Below, piece after piece: positions 30,250 to 42,679 of a stretch of DNA of 42,707 nt. The stretch lies in the sequence record DRR723986_11617; one strand, 5' to 3'. Both the position numbers and the translations under genes were made by a program. The notes under the pieces were generated by a model that searched no databases, had not been told where the DNA came from, and saw nothing but the letters and a program-made list of their open reading frames with translations. How positions within the stretch are numbered: the stretch's first letter is position 1; every line of letters starts with the position of its first letter.

Positions 30250-31272
30250 ATGCTAGATCCCATTTCACTGGCTGAGCGCGGGTTAATCCCTGACCCCCTT
30301 ATTCGCCGCGGCATCCGCCGCCAACTTCAGGACCGTCTGGCCCAAGAGGGCCGCGATGATATCGATGCCAGCGAGCAGCGTCGTCGAGAATTTCGCGAAG
30401 CGCTGCGTCACTCAGAAATTGCCATCAATACCGACGACGCCAACGACCAGCACTACGAGGTACCTGCTGCACTCTTTGAATTGATGCTTGGCCGTCGCTT
30501 GAAATACTCAAGCTGCTGGTGGGGCGATGGTATCGACAATATCAACGACGCTGAAGAAGCCATGCTTGAGCTCTACGCAGAGCGAGCTCAACTGCGCGGT
30601 GGCCAGCGTATTTTGGAGCTCGGCTGCGGCTGGGGGAGTTTCTGTTTGTGGGCCGCCGAGCGCTATCCCGGCAGCCATATTACTGCGATATCCAATTCGC
30701 ACGGACAGCGCGAATACATCGAGGCACAGGCGCGACTGCGTGCGCTGGATAACCTGGAGGTAATCACCTGCAATGTCGCCGACTTAACACTCGACCAGCG
30801 TTTCGACCGCGTTGTTAGCATTGAAATGCTGGAGCATGTGCGCAACTACCGCGAGCTACTGAAAAACGTCGCAAGCTGGCTGGAGCCAGAGGGCCTGATG
30901 TTTGTGCACATCTTCTGTCATGCCCACCTGCACTACCCCTTTGATGGCGGCTGGATGACCGACAACTTTTTCGCCGGTGGTCAGATGCCCGCCTTCGACA
31001 CGCTTATGCACTTCTCGGAGCATATGCGTGTCGCCGATAGTTGGCGCGTGAATGGCCTGCATTACGCGCAAACGTTGGAGGCATGGCTAGAGAAGTTAGA
31101 CCAGCAGCGTCCGCGGGCAATGCAAATTCTCGCCGATGCACCCAACCCTCGCGTTCAATTCCAGCGCTGGCGCATGTTTATGCTGGCCTGCGCGGAGTTG
31201 TTCGCCTATCAGGGCGGCAATGAATGGCTGGTGGGCCATTATTTGCTCACCCCTGGGCAGCAAGCCGACTGA
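30250..31272 (+). CDS. SAM-dependent methyltransferase, cyclopropane-fatty-acyl synthase-like family
   Basis: ANDQHYE, KYSSC, ILELGCGWG, SIEMLEH. Confidence 0.88.
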   Translation: MLDPISLAERGLIPDPLIRRGIRRQLQDRLAQEGRDDIDASEQRRREFREALRHSEIAINTDDANDQHYEVPAALFELMLGRRLKYSSCWWGDGIDNINDAEEAMLELYAERAQLRGGQRILELGCGWGSFCLWAAERYPGSHITAISNSHGQREYIEAQARLRALDNLEVITCNVADLTLDQRFDRVVSIEMLEHVRNYRELLKNVASWLEPEGLMFVHIFCHAHLHYPFDGGWMTDNFFAGGQMPAFDTLMHFSEHMRVADSWRVNGLHYAQTLEAWLEKLDQQRPRAMQILADAPNPRVQFQRWRMFMLACAELFAYQGGNEWLVGHYLLTPGQQAD

Positions 31273-34546: not shown

Positions 34547-35611
34547 ATGACCATACTGATTACCGGCGCCACGGGTTTTATTGGCCGCCACGTCTGCGCT
34601 GAATTATCGAAAAACCAAGCCCTTATCGCGGTGCTGCGCCAACCCGAGCAACAACTGCCGCTACTTCGCCAGCAAGTCGATGCACTGGGTGGCAACGGCA
34701 CCCACATCCAGGCGGTCGCTGGCGATCTGGAGCGGCCGAAGCTGGGAATTAAAGACTCGTTGCCCACGCTAGACGCCGTCATCCATCTCGCCGCCCGCTT
34801 CGCCTGGAAGTTAGCCCCCAACATCGCCCAAAACAGCAATGTAGGCGGCAGCCTGGCGGCGGCCGAACTGGCGCGGCAACACAATTGCCGATTGGTTTTT
34901 ATCAGCGGTTTTATGCTGGAAAATCACCAACACCTAAACCGTCTCGGCATCCACCCAACCGGTCCCGAGCGCACCGACTGGCGCAGGGTATACCGCCGCG
35001 CCGGCGCCTACGAGGCCAGCAAGCTGGAAGCGGCGTTCCGCGTTCGCGCTTTTGCACAAGCCAACGATATGGATCTTGTCGAAGTGCAACCCGCCACTGT
35101 GGCGGGCCACAGCCAAACCGGCATGTTGGATGCTCAGCAGCCGCTGTTTAATTTGCTGGATAACCTCGCTCATGGGCGCCTGGCCATGGTGCCGGGCAGC
35201 CCCGAACATTGGCTGCCGCTGGTCGCTGTTGATGTATTGGCAACGTTGATTGCCCATGCCACCACCAGCGAAAATGCCCCCGGGCGATTGCTGGCCCTGG
35301 ATGCCAATACGCCAAACCTGCAAGGCACACTGGCAATTGCCGCGCAGGCGCTCGACATGACTGCGCCTAAACGTCACTTACCACTGCGCCTACTGTCATG
35401 GCTGCTGCGCATTCCCGGTATGCCCACGGTAATGAACACCTCACCAGAGGCACTCAATTTTATCCAAACCACCCGTTTCGATACCCGAGACACTCAGCAA
35501 TTCATGCAGCAACTGGGCATTGAAACGCCGGATATCACGCAAGTGATTGCTCACTCGGCGCAGTTCTATCACCACCTTCAACAGGCTGCGCTGTCACCTG
35601 CCGCAAGCTGA
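34547..35611 (+). CDS. Extended SDR / NAD-dependent epimerase-reductase
   Basis: ITGATGFIG, IHLAA, YEASK; RBS AAGGAG. Confidence 0.88.
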   Translation: MTILITGATGFIGRHVCAELSKNQALIAVLRQPEQQLPLLRQQVDALGGNGTHIQAVAGDLERPKLGIKDSLPTLDAVIHLAARFAWKLAPNIAQNSNVGGSLAAAELARQHNCRLVFISGFMLENHQHLNRLGIHPTGPERTDWRRVYRRAGAYEASKLEAAFRVRAFAQANDMDLVEVQPATVAGHSQTGMLDAQQPLFNLLDNLAHGRLAMVPGSPEHWLPLVAVDVLATLIAHATTSENAPGRLLALDANTPNLQGTLAIAAQALDMTAPKRHLPLRLLSWLLRIPGMPTVMNTSPEALNFIQTTRFDTRDTQQFMQQLGIETPDITQVIAHSAQFYHHLQQAALSPAAS

Positions 35612-35653
35612 CACGCCCTTCCCGCTACGCCGTGTTGCCGTTGACGATGCCGG

Positions 35654-36103
35654 TCAAGCAGCGGCTTCAACAAACTGCTTCAAGGCGAGATTCTCGGCCG
35701 CCATGCCCTCGCGCACTGCCTTACCGGTAAACATATCGGCCAGTGCGCGCAGTGGCCCTGTTATCGGCAGCTCATTTCTATAACGCACGCCTCCGCAGGG
35801 CAACGCTTCTATCGAGCGGCTGCGCTCACCGTAAGCGAACAGGGTGAACCACCCCATATCGCACCAGCGCAAACGCTTTCCGGGCACCACTTCCAGCACC
35901 TTGTGTTTCACTTTCATCGTCTTGGCGCCCAAGCGAACAGTTACATCGGCGATTTCGCCCTCGCGACACTGGCCCTGCGCCTGAATCAGCCACGGATTCC
36001 AACGGTGGTAGCCGTCAAAATCGGCAATCACTGCAAACACATCGTCGGCATCAGCATTAATATCAATGTGCGTGGAATAGAAAATTTCTCGAAACATCAT
36101 CAA
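35654..36103 (-). CDS. SRPBCC (START/polyketide cyclase-like) domain protein
   Basis: IDINA..DDVFAVIADFDGYHRWNP ... ENLALKQFVE. Confidence 0.8.
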   Translation of the reverse strand: MMMFREIFYSTHIDINADADDVFAVIADFDGYHRWNPWLIQAQGQCREGEIADVTVRLGAKTMKVKHKVLEVVPGKRLRWCDMGWFTLFAYGERSRSIEALPCGGVRYRNELPITGPLRALADMFTGKAVREGMAAENLALKQFVEAAA

Positions 36104-36152
36104 CCCCGCTCGCCCTATGAATAACGCTTACTCTACCGCCATAGATCGCGGT

Positions 36153-38799: not shown

Positions 38800-38863
38800 A
38801 TTTAACGCTCAGCTAGGGGGCGAGGTGCGTAGAACTTTGTCCCCCTTGAGCGCCTTGTTATGT
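38800..38863 (-). repeat. attC site (64 bp)
   Basis: Minus: ACATAAC AAGGCGCTCAAGGGGGAC...GCCCCCTAGCTGAGC GTTAAAT. Confidence 0.88.
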
Positions 38864-39258
38864 TTTGCTGGCACTGTGTATGTATAGTGGCAGGCATCAG
38901 GGTAAACTGGAGTAATTATGTATGACACCCTGAAGCTTGAAACATCAAGCTGGCCTGGCGTAATTAGAACCTGTGTTTGGGATAATGCCCCCTGAGACTC
39001 TAGTGACAAATTAGCAGTAAGTAGCCGGCCTTGTTCATTCGCTTGATCGAACATGACAGACGACAAAACAACGTTCTCGATCTTTGTTGGAACAGCGATA
39101 GTAAGGAAGCGAAGGTCCTGTCCCTTTACTTCAGCATTTTGGACAGTTACTTCAACACCTTCATTAAACCTAGTACCTATTGCCTCTGACTCGCACTGCC
39201 AGCCCACGCCCATTGAAGGGAATGCCAGTAGAAAGATAATAGTAAGGTTATACCTCAC
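38809..39258 (-). CDS. Cassette-encoded putative secreted protein (start probably GTG 39258; reads into its attC)
   Basis: RBS AAGGAG before GTG; signal-like MRYNLTIIFLLAFPSMGVG; two Cys; stop lies inside the attC. Confidence 0.7.
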   Translation of the reverse strand: MRYNLTIIFLLAFPSMGVGWQCESEAIGTRFNEGVEVTVQNAEVKGQDLRFLTIAVPTKIENVVLSSVMFDQANEQGRLLTANLSLESQGALSQTQVLITPGQLDVSSFRVSYIITPVYPDACHYTYTVPAKHNKALKGDKVLRTSPPS

Positions 39259-39272
39259 GAACTCTCCTTGAA

Positions 39273-39359
39273 ACATAACTCTCGGCTTTGGGGCTGGCGT
39301 GAGGCGCAGCGGAACGACAGTCCCAGCCCCGTAGGGGCGACAACAGGCGCTTGCTACGC
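39273..39359 (-). repeat. attC site (87 bp) with variant inverse core AGC instead of AAC
   Basis: Minus: GCGTAGC AAGCGCCTGTTGTCGCCCCTACGGGGCTGGGAC...CCAGCCCCAAAGCCGAGA GTTATGT. Confidence 0.82.
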
Positions 39360-39729: not shown

Positions 39730-39795
39730 GCGTAACGCCTCAATAACCTGCAGCAGAAGCGTAGCGCAGGCGCGTAGTTAATTGATTTGTTAAGT
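39730..39795 (-). repeat. attC site (66 bp)
   Basis: Minus: ACTTAAC AAATCAATTAACTACGCGCCTGC...GCAGGTTATTGAGGC GTTACGC. Confidence 0.88.
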
Positions 39796-39798
39796 GAT

Positions 39799-40725
39799 TC
39801 AATTGCACAGGACTCGATTGATCTCATTAAACCAACTCTCCCTGTGAATAATCCGTTCTTTGTGTAGGTTATTCTCTAGGATTTCAGCCTTAGTTAAACC
39901 AGACAGAACTTCCCAATTGTTTTCAATGATATATGTGGCATTGTTTGTTTGCGTGCTTTCCAAGATGTATAGATTTTTGTCAGGGAAACCAAAGATCAAA
40001 TAACCTGAAAATCCAGCTCTACCTACTGCAACAAAGTCGGGCTCATGTACATTGATAGATTCCAACCTTTTATCAATAACAAGCTTATTTCCTTCCGAGA
40101 GATTCTCTGTAGCTTCATGTACAAGTGGCTTTAGCTCGCCCCAAGGTTTTTTCCCTGGAGGAAGGACATCCCAATTCAGCTTACGAAGAGGAGCCCTAAT
40201 AATAGAATCGAGACTCTCACTCCTAATCTCGCAATATCCAAAAATCTCAAGGAATAGGTTGATTATATGAACCAGATGATCTTCGTTCTCGGTAGTAAAT
40301 TCTATCGGGGCTGAGACGATGAATTTTTCACTGTCAGCATTTGTGGCGATATTCAGTTCAACAGCCGGAGGCTCTACATTCTCTCTGGGATAGCGCTAGT
40401 AAGGAATATCTACGATTTTCGACTTTTCCTCAAAATCGTATCTACCTCTGAACTCTTTCCAGGTCCATTCTTGCTGTCTATAGTGTATTTCCTTTGGCTC
40501 GTCTTTTAGTGGGATTTCTTTACCCTCGGCATTGAATTTAGAAATGTTGCCAATTGCTTTCGGAAGGACAGTTTCCCCAGGAGATAAATCAGGACTAAAG
40601 CCAACATCTATAGCTGCGACACTATCAATATCTGATACTCCAACGCTCAGAACTATGGGCTGCCCCTCTTGCAACCCTTTAGTGTACGCGCCTAGCGTTC
40701 TGATCCGCTTTTTATTGATAATCAT
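39799..40725 (-). pseudogene. Cassette-encoded 308-codon unknown gene interrupted by one in-frame TAG (40396-40398)
   Basis: ORFs 40396..40725 and 39799..40065 share a frame; manual translation between them is stop-free (DIPY*RYPRENVEPP...NLFLEIFGYC...LNWDVLPPGKKPW...RLESIN); fills the cassette exactly; RBS AAGGAG. Confidence 0.82.
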
Positions 40726-40748
40726 AGATAAAACTCCTTTCTGTATTC

Positions 40749-40830
40749 ACTTAACGCCGGTAGCAAAGGCGAGCATTAGCGAGTCCAGCCCGCGTTTTTA
40801 TGCGGGCGATTTTGTCTACCCTTGTTAAAT
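40749..40830 (-). repeat. attC site (82 bp)
   Basis: Minus: ATTTAAC AAGGGTAGACAAAATCGCCCGC...TTTGCTACCGGC GTTAAGT; upstream gene's TAA lies in the inverse core. Confidence 0.9.
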
Positions 40831-41121
40831 GTATGACCACACCGCACCTATGATAAGTAGAAAAATTATTGCAGCCTGAACCTTATTAGCTTTACTTTGC
40901 TCAGCTCTAGCTTCAGGCGTATCAGTTACCCCTTCTTGATGATCAAAGCCACCTTCATCAAGATCTTCATTGAATATGATGAGACCATTAACGAAAACAG
41001 CGACCATTACCAGCAAAGTTGCCGTTAGCCAGTAAAACCCCGTGAAGTACTGTATGCCCCAACCAATTAGGAGGCATACAGAGATCATGATTGCTGCGAG
41101 CTTTAGGTCGATTCCATTCAT
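40825..41121 (-). CDS. Cassette-encoded small 3-TM membrane protein
   Basis: 98 aa; hydrophobic helices with an acidic loop (NEDLDEGGFD); stop inside RYYYAAC. Confidence 0.78.
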   Translation of the reverse strand: MNGIDLKLAAIMISVCLLIGWGIQYFTGFYWLTATLLVMVAVFVNGLIIFNEDLDEGGFDHQEGVTDTPEARAEQSKANKVQAAIIFLLIIGAVWSYI

Positions 41122-41899: not shown

Positions 41900-42679
41900 T
41901 TAGTGTGATTTGATAACATTTTGCAATAGCTTTCCTGCCATGTCATGAACTTCGTCGAATGTTAATACGTCTATATTGGCACTGCTTGCGTTAAAACGCT
42001 TTAGCTTATCCTTTTGCCTTTGCGACATTGTTTTACTACGCCCCATAATCAGCAACCCTCGAGGAGACGAAATATCAGGTAATAAGGTTTTTGCATATGC
42101 GCCATTCGAATCAATCCATTCTTGAAAATCTAAAACCTGCCCCAGCGCATGGGTAAACTTTGAGGAAAACTCATCCGCATTAGTGAAAATTTTGTCCTGA
42201 GGTTTTTCTATTTCTACCAAAATGTACTTGTTATCTAGTTTCTTTATGACGAAGTCAGTTATGTATTCAACGCCAAGCTTCTGTTTGGGTATTACCTCGG
42301 ACGCAATTGGGTCCAAAAAAACGGGGTTATTGGATAAAAATATCTGATACTCTTCTTCTCTTTCTTCTTTTTCAATAAGCTCTGAAAAATTTCTAATCAA
42401 GCTTGCTGTTATAAGTATGCGGCCTTCCAGCATTAAATTAAAAAAGTCTTCTTTGAAAGAGCCTTCTTTTCCGGCTTTAATATCGGAGATAAAATTCTGC
42501 TGATAAACAAACTGTATTAGTGGGTCGAAGAGCTCAGAGTTATGTGCACTTTCCAATACAACATATCTCAAGGCTTCATTGACCTTATTCAGAAGATCAC
42601 CATTTAATGACTTAGTCAGATAGCCTGTTGGCTTATCGTTAGAAAAATATAGGCCGCCACTTAGTTCATTTTTTGATTG
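41900..42679 (-). CDS. Shedu (SduA, DUF4263)-like anti-phage nuclease domain protein; start uncertain
   Basis: EEEYQIFLSNNPVFL, ITDFV, LVEIEKP, ALGQVLDF, LLIMGR, LKRFN, VLTFD; frame open to 42679, where an in-frame TGA (42680-42682) bounds it. Confidence 0.8.
   Translation of the reverse strand, partial: QSKNELSGGLYFSNDKPTGYLTKSLNGDLLNKVNEALRYVVLESAHNSELFDPLIQFVYQQNFISDIKAGKEGSFKEDFFNLMLEGRILITASLIRNFSELIEKEEREEEYQIFLSNNPVFLDPIASEVIPKQKLGVEYITDFVIKKLDNKYILVEIEKPQDKIFTNADEFSSKFTHALGQVLDFQEWIDSNGAYAKTLLPDISSPRGLLIMGRSKTMSQRQKDKLKRFNASSANIDVLTFDEVHDMAGKLLQNVIKSH

What the first reader, a model, noticed from the sequence alone, without database searches (positions are those of the whole stretch)
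39799..40725. Otherwise intact 308-codon cassette gene split by a single amber codon; candidate new defence gene
Seen: the ORF track shows two fragments, but they are one frame with exactly one stop (TAC-TAG-CGC, codon 110), no frameshift, a good RBS and a perfect fit to a 1019-bp cassette. The C-terminal part has motif-like blocks (NWDVLPPG..PW; PDFVAVGRAGFSGYLIFGF; YILES...NATY...NWEVLSGLTKAEIL) that I cannot assign to a family. It is the only soluble cargo here besides Shedu. Inference: a toxic or anti-phage gene silenced by a recent nonsense mutation (for example CAG or AAG to TAG). More speculatively, a read-through switch activated by suppressor tRNAs of TAG-recoding phages.
Basis: partly seen in the sequence, partly recalled or inferred. 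Interest (0 to 1): 0.78.

Follow-up and report, generated by a model that had tools for sequence, protein, structure and literature searches.

The report
Amber-broken integron cassette, candidate defence gene
A roughly 1-kb integron cassette gene is knocked out by a single premature stop codon; it is a dead copy of a very large unnamed protein family that usually sits among anti-phage defence genes.

Summary
On the minus strand, 39799-40725 is one frame of 308 codons with a single internal TAG at codon 110 (plus-strand 40396-40398). It has a good RBS and fills a 1019-bp attC-bounded cassette.

The TAG is lineage-specific damage, not a programmed signal. All 64 aligned homologs have a sense residue there, and none of 61 loci has TAG. 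The closest DNA relatives have GAG, so the change is G>T. TAG ends 5 other long ORFs in the window. No usable restart codon follows the stop. Reads could not be checked.

The family is large: 2064 clusters at 50% identity, in bacteria and archaea, almost always about 300 aa. It has no Pfam, NCBIfam or PADLOC model and no Foldseek match. It was found in 1 of 50,697 phage records.

Its neighbours are rich in defence genes: 35 of 150 adjacent ORFs hit PADLOC, against 7 of 105 ORFs more than 4 kb away. Of 80 loci, 22 carry a CapP/CapH, RmrA-like or LexA-like regulator nearby. Eight have an adjacent DUF2188 gene (PADLOC candidate PDC-S16).

Verdict: a pseudogenised cassette of an uncharacterised, probably stress-induced defence effector. 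The read-through switch is unsupported.

The parts
39799..40725 (-). Disrupted cassette gene: 308 sense-or-amber codons plus the terminal TAA. Read through with X it is P0001.
   Evidence: 599 homologs at E<=1e-3, the best 97% identical and 308 aa
40396..40398 (-). In-frame amber codon (TAG, codon 110) inside the conserved N-domain motif P-Y-x-R-Y-P-R. The closest relatives have GAG here.
40399..40725 (-). The only translatable product: a 109-aa N-terminal fragment. It ends before three predicted strands of the N-terminal domain (114-138) and lacks the whole C-terminal domain.
   Evidence: this exact sequence is not in the 15-billion-protein collection
39802..40395 (-). 198 codons downstream of the stop, encoding the rest of the N-domain and the conserved C-terminal alpha/beta domain. 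There is no in-frame ATG, GTG or TTG until codon 221.
40734..40738 (-). Shine-Dalgarno AGGAG, 8 nt before the ATG. This leader is conserved in cassette copies of other genera.
40749..40832 (-). attC of the preceding cassette (R'' TTTAAC ... R' GTTAAGT). Its R' marks the 5' boundary of this cassette. Only about 16 nt separate it from the RBS, which leaves no room for a promoter.
   Evidence: (DNA fold z = -2.5)
39730..39797 (-). This cassette's own attC (R'' CTTAAC directly after the stop codon ... R' GTTACGC), forming the 3' boundary.
   Evidence: The single-strand fold is not better than shuffles (z = -0.5); the site was identified from its core sites and from conservation in relatives.

Best explanation
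This is a promoterless 1019-bp cassette in a chromosomal integron array. Its single gene has been inactivated by one G>T substitution (GAG Glu110 to TAG). Translation stops after 109 residues, inside the N-terminal domain, and nothing downstream can restart, so the cassette is a recent pseudogene. This much is shown, provided the base call is correct. The intact gene belongs to a very large, horizontally mobile family of two-domain soluble proteins of about 300 aa, with no annotated domain and no recognisable fold relative. From its genomic company I infer that the family is an anti-phage or stress effector that can act as a single gene. In about a quarter of loci it is kept transcriptionally off. 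There it would be switched on when a DNA-damage or ssDNA-sensing protease (CapP, an RmrA-like XRE-M78 fusion, or a self-cleaving LexA-like repressor) removes a repressor. In some loci it has a small DUF2188 (HicB-like) partner. The biochemical activity is unknown. The amber allele most likely reflects relaxed selection on a poorly expressed distal cassette, or selection against a costly gene. It is not a regulatory device.
For: Pseudogene:
- There is one stop in 308 codons.
- The other 64 members of alignment A2 have K (25), E (24), Q (11), S (3) or L (1) at that column.
- Codons in the 61 loci where the motif was found: AAG 13, CAA 12, AAA 12, GAG 11, GAA 7, others 6, TAG 0. L001-L005, L009 and L011 have GAG.
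- 74 of 80 loci hold a full ORF of at least 297 aa.
- TAG ends 5 other ORFs among 42 greedy ORFs of at least 100 aa.
- There is no in-frame start between codons 111 and 220.

Cassette:
- Core sites and boundaries are conserved in Halomonas, Salinicola, Alcanivorax, Methylophaga and Aliamphritea.

Family:
- 2064 proteins at E<=1e-3 among the 50%-identity representatives.
- No fused forms were found.
- No Pfam, NCBIfam or PADLOC hit.
- The model is confident (pLDDT 89.8) but has no Foldseek match at E<=1e-3 in PDB or BFVD.

Defence context:
- 35 of 150 immediate neighbours hit PADLOC at E<=1e-8, against 7 of 105 ORFs more than 4 kb away (Fisher p = 3e-4) and 1 of 28 chromosomal ORFs of the window.
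- capP lies upstream in 14 of 80 loci (E 1e-24 to 1e-70), in 12 of them on the opposite strand. Lau et al. describe this layout for CapH/CapP-regulated immune operons (10.1101/2022.04.27.489752, passages).
- RmrA-like fusions occur in 5 loci and LexA-like repressors in 3.
- DUF2188 (PDC-S16) is adjacent in 8 loci.
- Only 1 of 50,697 phage records holds a homolog.
- Homologs occur on small lactic-acid-bacteria plasmids.
Against: - No reads were available, so a base-call error would dissolve the pseudogene.
- The defence role rests only on guilt by association. There is no phenotype, no catalytic motif and no fold match.
- 58 of 80 loci have none of the regulators, and 72 of 80 have no adjacent DUF2188.
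- The window's own cassette has neither partner.
- PADLOC hits include regulators and generic domains. For example, a relaxase hits RecD-like models and a CMAS methyltransferase hits mad2.
- The ORFs are crude greedy calls, not gene predictions.
- DNA-damage-responsive regulators fit a repair or stress function as well as immunity.
- The SocA/Panacea antitoxin seen upstream in L013 pairs with an MqsR-like toxin, not with this family.
Confidence: 0.72

Rival explanations
1. Sequencing or assembly error: the real genome has GAG (or another sense codon) and the cassette gene is intact.
For: Everything else about the gene is perfect: 0 deviations at 58 conserved columns. Another record of this family (Aliamphritea spongicola AP025283, L009 and L011) carries multiple frameshifts, while a second assembly of that species encodes an intact 308-aa protein. 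Errors in public records of this gene are therefore plausible.
Against: The lesion here is a substitution, not a homopolymer indel of the kind seen in L009 and L011. Distal integron cassettes are commonly degraded (established knowledge). No data point to low quality at this site.
Confidence: 0.12
2. Programmed or conditional read-through: the amber codon is a switch that lets the protein be made only when a suppressor tRNA (for example from a TAG-recoding phage) is present.
For: It is a single clean amber in an otherwise intact candidate defence gene. The next base is C, which I recall gives a weak termination context; this was not tested here.
Against: 0 of 61 loci and 0 of 64 aligned homologs have TAG at this codon. 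The 97%-identical relatives are intact. The short relatives that were aligned (10 of 17) are all C-terminal pieces, none a 109-aa N-terminal fragment. TAG terminates 5 other long ORFs in the window. No tRNA gene and no Rfam element lies in the window.
Confidence: 0.02
3. The family is not an immune effector. It could be a DNA-damage or stress-response function, or a housekeeping function of mobile elements, that merely travels in the same variable regions.
For: The recurrent regulators (CapP/CapH, LexA-like S24, XRE-M78) all respond to DNA damage (passages in 10.1101/2022.04.27.489752 and 10.64898/2026.05.16.725639). Neighbours also include integrases, a relaxase, a transposase and plasmid genes.
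Against: PADLOC hits are enriched at immediately adjacent genes relative to genes more than 4 kb away. The distribution is extremely patchy across bacteria, CPR lineages and archaea. The gene moves as a stand-alone integron cassette next to a Shedu cassette. Lau et al. count CapH/CapP-linked DUF2188 operons among putative defence systems.
Confidence: 0.25
4. The family is the toxin of a RosmerTA-like or Panacea-type toxin-antitoxin pair, and the amber codon rescued the host from an orphan toxin.
For: RmrA-like XRE-M78 fusions lie next to the gene in L018, L026, L038, L079 and L030. ImmA/Rosmer antitoxins pair with many unrelated toxins (PMC10440598, passages). DUF2188 has been likened to the HicB antitoxin (PMC13621843, passage).
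Against: P0001 hits no PADLOC model, RmrT included, at E<=1. 74 of 80 loci keep an intact gene, and most have no antitoxin-like neighbour. The cassette copies in six other loci also stand alone. The Panacea protein in L013 already has an MqsR-like partner.
Confidence: 0.1

Closest known systems
'DUF2188 + hypothetical protein system' next to CapP/CapH (Lau et al. 2022, Fig. 6F legend, Extensimonas perlucida)
   Same: The gene order given there is CapP-like, CapH-like, two hypothetical proteins, DUF2188. That is the order in my locus L034 (capP, capH-position gene, 197-aa gene, homolog, DUF2188) and close to L068. The regulators sit upstream on the opposite strand, as described.
   Different: I could not fetch the Extensimonas proteins, so sequence identity with this family is inferred from layout only. 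The system is uncharacterised in that paper. The window's copy has no capP, capH or DUF2188.
RosmerTA (RmrT toxin with RmrA XRE-M78 antitoxin)
   Same: A full-length RmrA match lies 452 nt upstream on the same strand in L038 (E 1e-108). Weaker RmrA-like fusions occur in L018, L026, L079 and L030.
   Different: No RmrT model matches P0001. 75 of 80 loci lack RmrA. Toxicity is untested.
Integron cassettes that encode single-gene phage defence, such as the Shedu cassette in this same array
   Same: A promoterless attC-bounded cassette of about 1 kb with one ORF and its own RBS. A SduA nuclease-domain cassette lies two cassettes upstream at 41900-42571. That integron cassettes encode defence systems comes from the abstracts listed (10.1101/2024.07.02.601719, PMC12614218).
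   Different: No experimental evidence exists for this family, and this copy is broken.
PADLOC candidate PDC-S16 (Pfam DUF2188)
   Same: It is the most frequent single partner, adjacent in 8 of 80 loci and on either side.
   Different: It is a separate protein of about 80 aa and is absent from the window.
Programmed stop-codon read-through or amber recoding
   Same: A single in-frame TAG in an otherwise conserved ORF.
   Different: The stop is not conserved in any homolog, and TAG is an ordinary terminator here.

Membership tests
Integron gene cassette | An attC site with inverted core sites (R'' RYYYAAC ... R' GTTRRRY) directly downstream of a single ORF | tested here: met
   R'' CTTAAC starts 4 nt after the stop and R' GTTACGC lies about 60 nt further on. 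Four more sites of the same design occur at 38803, 40752, 41135 and 41831.
Integron gene cassette | The same cassette boundaries are found around the gene in unrelated genomes (mobility as a unit) | tested here: met
   GTTAAGTGAA..AGGAG..ATG upstream and CACTTAACAA after the stop are shared with L001-L005 and L009, that is 6 of 8 other loci aligned. They are absent in L007 and L008.
Integron gene cassette | The array is attached to an intI integrase and attI | not testable with these tools
   No integrase domain was found among the 16 ORFs scanned at 30-42.7 kb. Cassette orientation places intI beyond the right end of the window.
Nonsense-mutation pseudogene | A premature stop at a position that is a sense codon in homologs, with no alternative product | tested here: met
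   0 TAG in 61 loci and 64 of 64 sense residues. No restart codon before codon 221.
Nonsense-mutation pseudogene | The stop is real in the organism's DNA | not testable with these tools
   No reads were available. The exact 109-aa fragment is absent from the protein collection.
Programmed read-through or recoded amber | The stop codon is conserved, or recurs independently, among homologs | tested here: not met
Programmed read-through or recoded amber | The host does not use TAG as a regular terminator, or encodes a suppressor | tested here: not met
   5 other long ORFs end in TAG and the window has no tRNA gene. Only 42.7 kb was examined.
CapH/CapP-regulated immune operon | capH (HTH) and capP (M78 peptidase) upstream of the operon on the opposite strand | tested here: inconclusive
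   Met for the family in 12 of 80 loci, with capP on the same strand in 2 more. A capH model hit accompanies it in L014, L017, L068, L072 and L058. Not met for the window's cassette: there is no capP or capH hit among the 40 window ORFs scanned.
CapH/CapP-regulated immune operon | Expression is induced by DNA damage and the operon protects against phage | not testable with these tools
   Needs experiments.
RosmerTA | The toxin matches an RmrT model and is paired with RmrA | tested here: not met
   No PADLOC hit for P0001 at E<=1. An RmrA-like neighbour is present in only 5 of 80 loci.
Any curated protein family (Pfam, NCBIfam, PADLOC, PHROGs) | A significant profile match | tested here: not met
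   0 families in Pfam, NCBIfam and PADLOC at E<=1. The only hit is phrog_14975, of unknown function, at E about 1e-3.

The most novel reading that the evidence does not exclude
The 308-aa family is a real, previously unnamed class of single-gene anti-phage effector with a fold unlike any solved structure. It spreads as an integron cassette and as a plasmid or island gene across bacteria, CPR lineages and archaea. In many hosts it would be armed only when DNA-damage sensors (CapP/CapH, LexA-like, RmrA-like) lift repression, sometimes with a HicB-like DUF2188 partner. The window would then hold a silenced 'biobank' copy one base away from function. The bolder idea, that the amber codon itself is a phage-suppressor-triggered switch, is not excluded by any direct test, but I put it at 0.03 or less.
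Probability: 0.35. Interest if true: 0.6.

Novelty: new member of a known kind. Interest (0 to 1): 0.4.

Why it matters
The amber codon itself is ordinary cassette decay. The value lies in the family it exposes. It has more than 2000 sequence clusters and no domain annotation. Its structure model is confident yet unmatched. Its link to defence genes and to DNA-damage-sensing regulators of immune operons is statistically supported. Intact alleles 97% identical to the window's gene exist, so a direct test for phage protection is cheap. A positive result would add a new effector type to the set of immune operons regulated by CapH/CapP. It would also add to the evidence that chromosomal integrons stockpile defence cassettes, including dead ones.

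Tried and rejected
- Sequence families: Pfam, NCBIfam and PADLOC gave nothing for the read-through protein or for its two halves. PHROGs gave only an unknown-function family at E about 1e-3.
- PDB by sequence profile, for the full length and for the C-terminal domain: nothing below E 0.05.
- Foldseek: the full model against PDB and BFVD, and the C-terminal-domain model against PDB, gave 0 matches at E<=1e-3. The best hit was ZorC 8r68 (E 0.13, TM 0.28). Anti-sigma/GHKL-like chains recur at TM 0.25-0.32. I treat these as noise.
- ESM Atlas: no usable hit for P0002. For P0015 there were only sub-0.9 leads, namely GapS4b at 0.82 and HATPase_c-like models at TM about 0.3. I did not pursue them because Pfam shows no GAPS4b match.
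- Fused forms: none among 7999 long candidates.
- Split forms: 17 short hits. The 10 I aligned are all C-terminal fragments.
- Panacea-toxin idea: dropped, because the Panacea protein in L013 is an MqsA-type antitoxin with its own MqsR-like toxin.
- Complex prediction for the homolog with DUF2188 was not available, so binding stays untested.
- Burroughs & Aravind 2020, cited by Lau et al. for DUF2188, could not be opened. It may name this family.
- A search for 'PDC-S16' found no paper.
- Rfam and tRNA scans of the window were empty.

Full report
**The observation**

The gene lies on the minus strand. Translating 39799-40725 gives 308 codons and the terminal stop, with exactly one internal stop at codon 110, in the context IPY*RYPR. 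The coding strand reads TAC TAG CGC, which is cta at plus-strand 40396-40398. ORF listing splits the frame into a 109-aa ATG-started piece (40396-40725) and an 88-aa TTG-started tail. There is no frameshift. AGGAG sits 8 nt before the ATG.

The gene is bracketed by two attC-like sites. Upstream, on the coding strand, the sequence runs TTTAAC ... GGCGTTAAGTG (plus-strand 40749-40832). Downstream it runs CACTTAAC ... GGCGTTACGC (39730-39797). Three more sites of the same design lie at 38803, 41135 and 41831. As single-stranded DNA, three of the four full sites folded beat shuffled controls (z = -2.5, -6.0 and -4.5). The cassette's own attC did not (z = -0.5). The fifth fold, at the 38803 site, covered only a 31-nt piece and is not informative.

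The cassette is real and mobile. The same 5' leader (GTTAAGTGAA..AGGAG..ATG) and the same post-stop CACTTAACAA core flank the gene in Halomonas, Salinicola, two Alcanivorax, Methylophaga and Aliamphritea. That is 6 of the 8 other loci aligned; Aliikangiella and Cellvibrio lack them. The left 35 kb of the window is ordinary chromosome, with HrpB, a TonB receptor and acyl-CoA ligases, at GC 0.52-0.63. GC falls to 0.42-0.50 from about 36 kb to the end. No integrase is in the window. Cassette orientation puts intI beyond the right end, at least three cassettes away.

**Is the stop damage or design?**

The read-through protein (P0001, X at 110) found 599 relatives at E<=1e-3, nearly all 300-325 aa. 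The best is 97% identical, 308 aa long and intact.

- In a 65-sequence alignment, the other 64 members have K (25), E (24), Q (11), S (3) or L (1) at that column.
- In genomic DNA I located the motif in 61 of 80 loci. Codons were AAG 13, CAA 12, AAA 12, GAG 11, GAA 7 and six others, with no TAG. My regular expression missed the other 19 loci, but one search shows them as intact ORFs.
- The closest DNA relatives (L001-L005, L009, L011) all have GAG, so the change is G>T on the coding strand, which is C>A at plus-strand 40398.
- 74 of 80 loci carry an uninterrupted ORF of at least 297 aa. Three are cut by contig ends, one is a 266-aa ORF, and two are frameshifted.
- The two frameshifted copies lie 39 kb apart in one Aliamphritea spongicola record. 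Another assembly of that species encodes an intact 308-aa protein, so those shifts may be assembly errors.
- The window's protein deviates at none of 58 columns that are at least 90% conserved; other members have a median of 1 deviation. The lesion is therefore recent.
- TAG terminates 5 other ORFs among 42 greedy ORFs of at least 100 aa (TAA 21, TGA 15, TAG 6 including this fragment).
- No tRNA gene and no Rfam element is in the window.
- No ATG, GTG or TTG is in frame between codons 111 and 220, so the conserved C-terminal domain cannot be made on its own.
- The exact 109-aa fragment is absent from the 15-billion-protein collection. A search for shorter relatives gave 17 hits, and the 10 I aligned are all C-terminal pieces.

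Everything fits a lineage-specific nonsense mutation, or a base-call error that I cannot exclude without reads. Nothing supports programmed read-through.

**What the family is**

It has no Pfam, NCBIfam or PADLOC match at E<=1, and only an unknown-function PHROG at E about 1e-3.

- A profile search of 1.84 billion 50%-identity representatives found 2064 proteins at E<=1e-3, 1510 at 1e-10 and 432 at 1e-30. Nearly all match end to end at about 300 aa.
- No longer, fused forms were found.
- Record titles of the 80 loci span many lineages: Pseudomonadota, Bacteroidota, Bacillota, cyanobacteria, Chloroflexota, Verrucomicrobiota, Planctomycetota, Deinococcota, Acidobacteriota, actinobacteria, Desulfobacterota, Atribacterota and three CPR lineages. 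They also include methanogenic archaea.
- Only 1 of 50,697 phage records has a homolog (30% identity).
- 20 plasmid records have a homolog. These include small Lactococcus and Latilactobacillus plasmids and Leptospira, Priestia, Bacillus thuringiensis and Deinococcus plasmids.

AlphaFold2 with 65 sequences gives a confident model (pLDDT 89.8, pTM 0.55). It has a beta-rich N-terminal domain (about 1-140) and an alpha/beta C-terminal domain (about 145-308). The amber codon falls in the N-domain's most conserved motif (Y109, R111, Y112, R114), before three of its strands. Invariant or near-invariant polar residues in the C-domain include N156, E160, W185, R220, E256, T264, Y265, R291 and H294.

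Foldseek found nothing at E<=1e-3 in PDB or BFVD for the full model, or in PDB for a separately predicted C-domain (pLDDT 82.4). Profile searches of PDB sequences were empty, and the ESM Atlas gave only sub-threshold leads. I cannot name a biochemical activity.

**Genomic company**

I called ORFs crudely (greedy longest-ORF sets) in the 80 loci and scanned the gene on each side.

- At E<=1e-8, 35 of 150 immediate neighbours hit a PADLOC model; one of the 151 was dropped for the size limit.
- The comparison sets were 7 of 105 ORFs lying more than 4 kb away in the same loci and 1 of 28 chromosomal ORFs of the window. Fisher p values are 3e-4 and 0.019.
- Hits include GajA/OLD, AbiLi, BilD, dGTPase, type IIG and type III restriction enzymes, an Argonaute-associated nuclease, PycTM and 2TM effectors, and several PADLOC candidate families (PDC-S49, -S59, -S31, -S33, -S06).
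- Some hits are generic. A relaxase hits RecD-like models, so the absolute rate is inflated; the same caveat applies to the controls.

Two partners recur.

(i) An M78 metallopeptidase lies upstream in 14 loci. All 14 match the capP model (E 1e-24 to 1e-70), 12 on the opposite strand and 2 directly upstream on the same strand. A small HTH gene beside it matches capH in L014, L017, L068, L072 and, weakly, L058. A third gene of 196-250 aa gives weak Sigma70_r2 hits in L020, L025 and L040 (E 1e-3 to 6e-3). Five further loci have fused XRE-M78 proteins matching RmrA; L038 matches over its full length at E 1e-108. Three have LexA-like S24 repressors. In all, 22 of 80 loci carry such a regulator.

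(ii) A DUF2188 protein of about 80 aa (PADLOC PDC-S16) is immediately adjacent in 8 loci, on either side.

**What is in print**

Passages of Lau et al. (10.1101/2022.04.27.489752) state several points.

- CapH and CapP sit upstream of, and opposite to, the immune operons they regulate.
- CapP is a DNA-damage-activated peptidase that cleaves the CapH repressor.
- 24 systems add a sigma-70-like gene.
- Among non-CBASS operons there is a 'DUF2188 + hypothetical protein system' of Extensimonas perlucida, made of CapP-like, CapH-like, two hypothetical proteins and DUF2188.

That is the gene order of my L034, so the family has probably already been drawn, unnamed and untested. I could not fetch those proteins to confirm it.

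The abstract and passages of 10.64898/2026.05.16.725639 say that ssDNA activates CapP and that CapP+CapH regulate a range of immune operons. A passage of PMC13621843 likens DUF2188 to HicB antitoxins by HHpred. Passages of PMC10440598 describe ImmA/Rosmer and Panacea antitoxins as promiscuous hubs. A passage of 10.64898/2025.12.03.692087 lists a DUF2188 protein as a putative Thoeris-island effector. Burroughs & Aravind 2020, the source cited for DUF2188, could not be opened. A search for 'PDC-S16' found no paper.

**Mechanism: shown and inferred**

Shown:
- There is one cassette gene with one amber codon.
- The homologs are intact and have sense codons at that position.
- The cassette boundaries are conserved across genera.
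- The family is large and unannotated.
- Its neighbours are enriched for defence genes and for damage-sensing regulators.

Inferred:
- The intact protein is a self-sufficient effector, since it travels alone in cassettes.
- Its expression is held down in some hosts, by CapH, LexA-like or RmrA-like repressors, until DNA damage or infection.
- It sometimes works with DUF2188.
- The window's allele is a dead copy. The likely cause is relaxed selection, because a promoterless cassette several positions from the integron promoter is weakly expressed (established integron biology). Selection against cost is an alternative.

I put the pseudogene reading at about 0.85 given a correct base call. I put a defence or abortive-infection function for the family at about 0.55, and a non-immune DNA-damage function at about 0.25. 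A classical toxin reading is unlikely: most loci have no antitoxin-like partner, and the Panacea protein upstream in L013 has its own MqsR-like toxin.

**Verdict**

The amber codon is ordinary decay. The family behind it is a worthwhile, cheap-to-test candidate for a new defence effector. Interest 0.4.

Noticed in passing
window 41900-42571 (-): A 223-aa cassette ORF with only the Shedu SduA C-terminal nuclease domain (Pfam SduA_C E 7e-20; PADLOC SduA E 4e-38, aligned to the last about 165 positions of a 383-position model). It is much shorter than typical SduA.
   Followed up: partly
L009 6001-6919 and L011 6001-6899 (Aliamphritea spongicola AP025283.1): Two 90%-identical copies of the family lie about 39 kb apart in one genome. 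L009 has two frameshifts and L011 has additional ones. A second assembly of the species encodes an intact 308-aa protein, so these may be assembly errors rather than pseudogenes.
   Followed up: partly
L081 1-4912 (Lactococcus cremoris SK11 plasmid 5, NC_008507.1): On this 14-kb dairy plasmid the homolog follows an annotated DEAD/DEAH-box helicase of about 1560 aa, with an 18-nt gap on the same strand. This may be a two-gene module. Giant ORFs also lie next to the homolog in L077 (1679 aa), L061 (1238 aa) and L079 (ResIII, 1141 aa).
   Followed up: no
L020 3856-5773, L025 3979-5979, L040 4019-5834 and similar: The capP/capH modules next to the family often include a third gene of 196-250 aa with weak Sigma70_r2 similarity (E 1e-3 to 6e-3). 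This matches the sigma-factor variant mentioned by Lau et al.
   Followed up: partly
L013 4563-5955: An MqsR-like toxin (weak, E 3e-4) plus a MqsA-HTH-Panacea antitoxin pair sits directly upstream of the homolog. It is a separate toxin-antitoxin module in the same island.
   Followed up: partly
window 38809-39276 (-) and 38803-38865: This 155-aa cassette ORF runs into its own attC, with the stop codon inside the R'-proximal arm. Cassette sizes in this stretch are about 930, 1019, 383 and 696 bp.
   Followed up: partly
window 30250-31272 (+): A cyclopropane-fatty-acid-synthase-type methyltransferase in the chromosomal part hits the PADLOC mad2 model at E 1e-21. This is an example of a generic-domain false positive that inflates PADLOC hit rates.
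   Followed up: no
window about 35650-36150: GC content drops from about 0.59 to about 0.50 and then 0.42-0.45 towards the right end. This marks the distal end of the cassette array against chromosomal genes (an NAD-dependent epimerase-family gene at 34547-35611). The attC sites left of 38800 were not mapped.
   Followed up: no
model residues about 174-308 of the family: Anti-sigma-factor and HATPase_c-like chains recur among the non-significant structural hits (Foldseek TM 0.25-0.32; Atlas TM about 0.3). The C-domain has a helix with a conserved Asn (N156) and a Gly-rich G-x-x-G-F-x-G segment. This is too weak to call a GHKL fold.
   Followed up: partly
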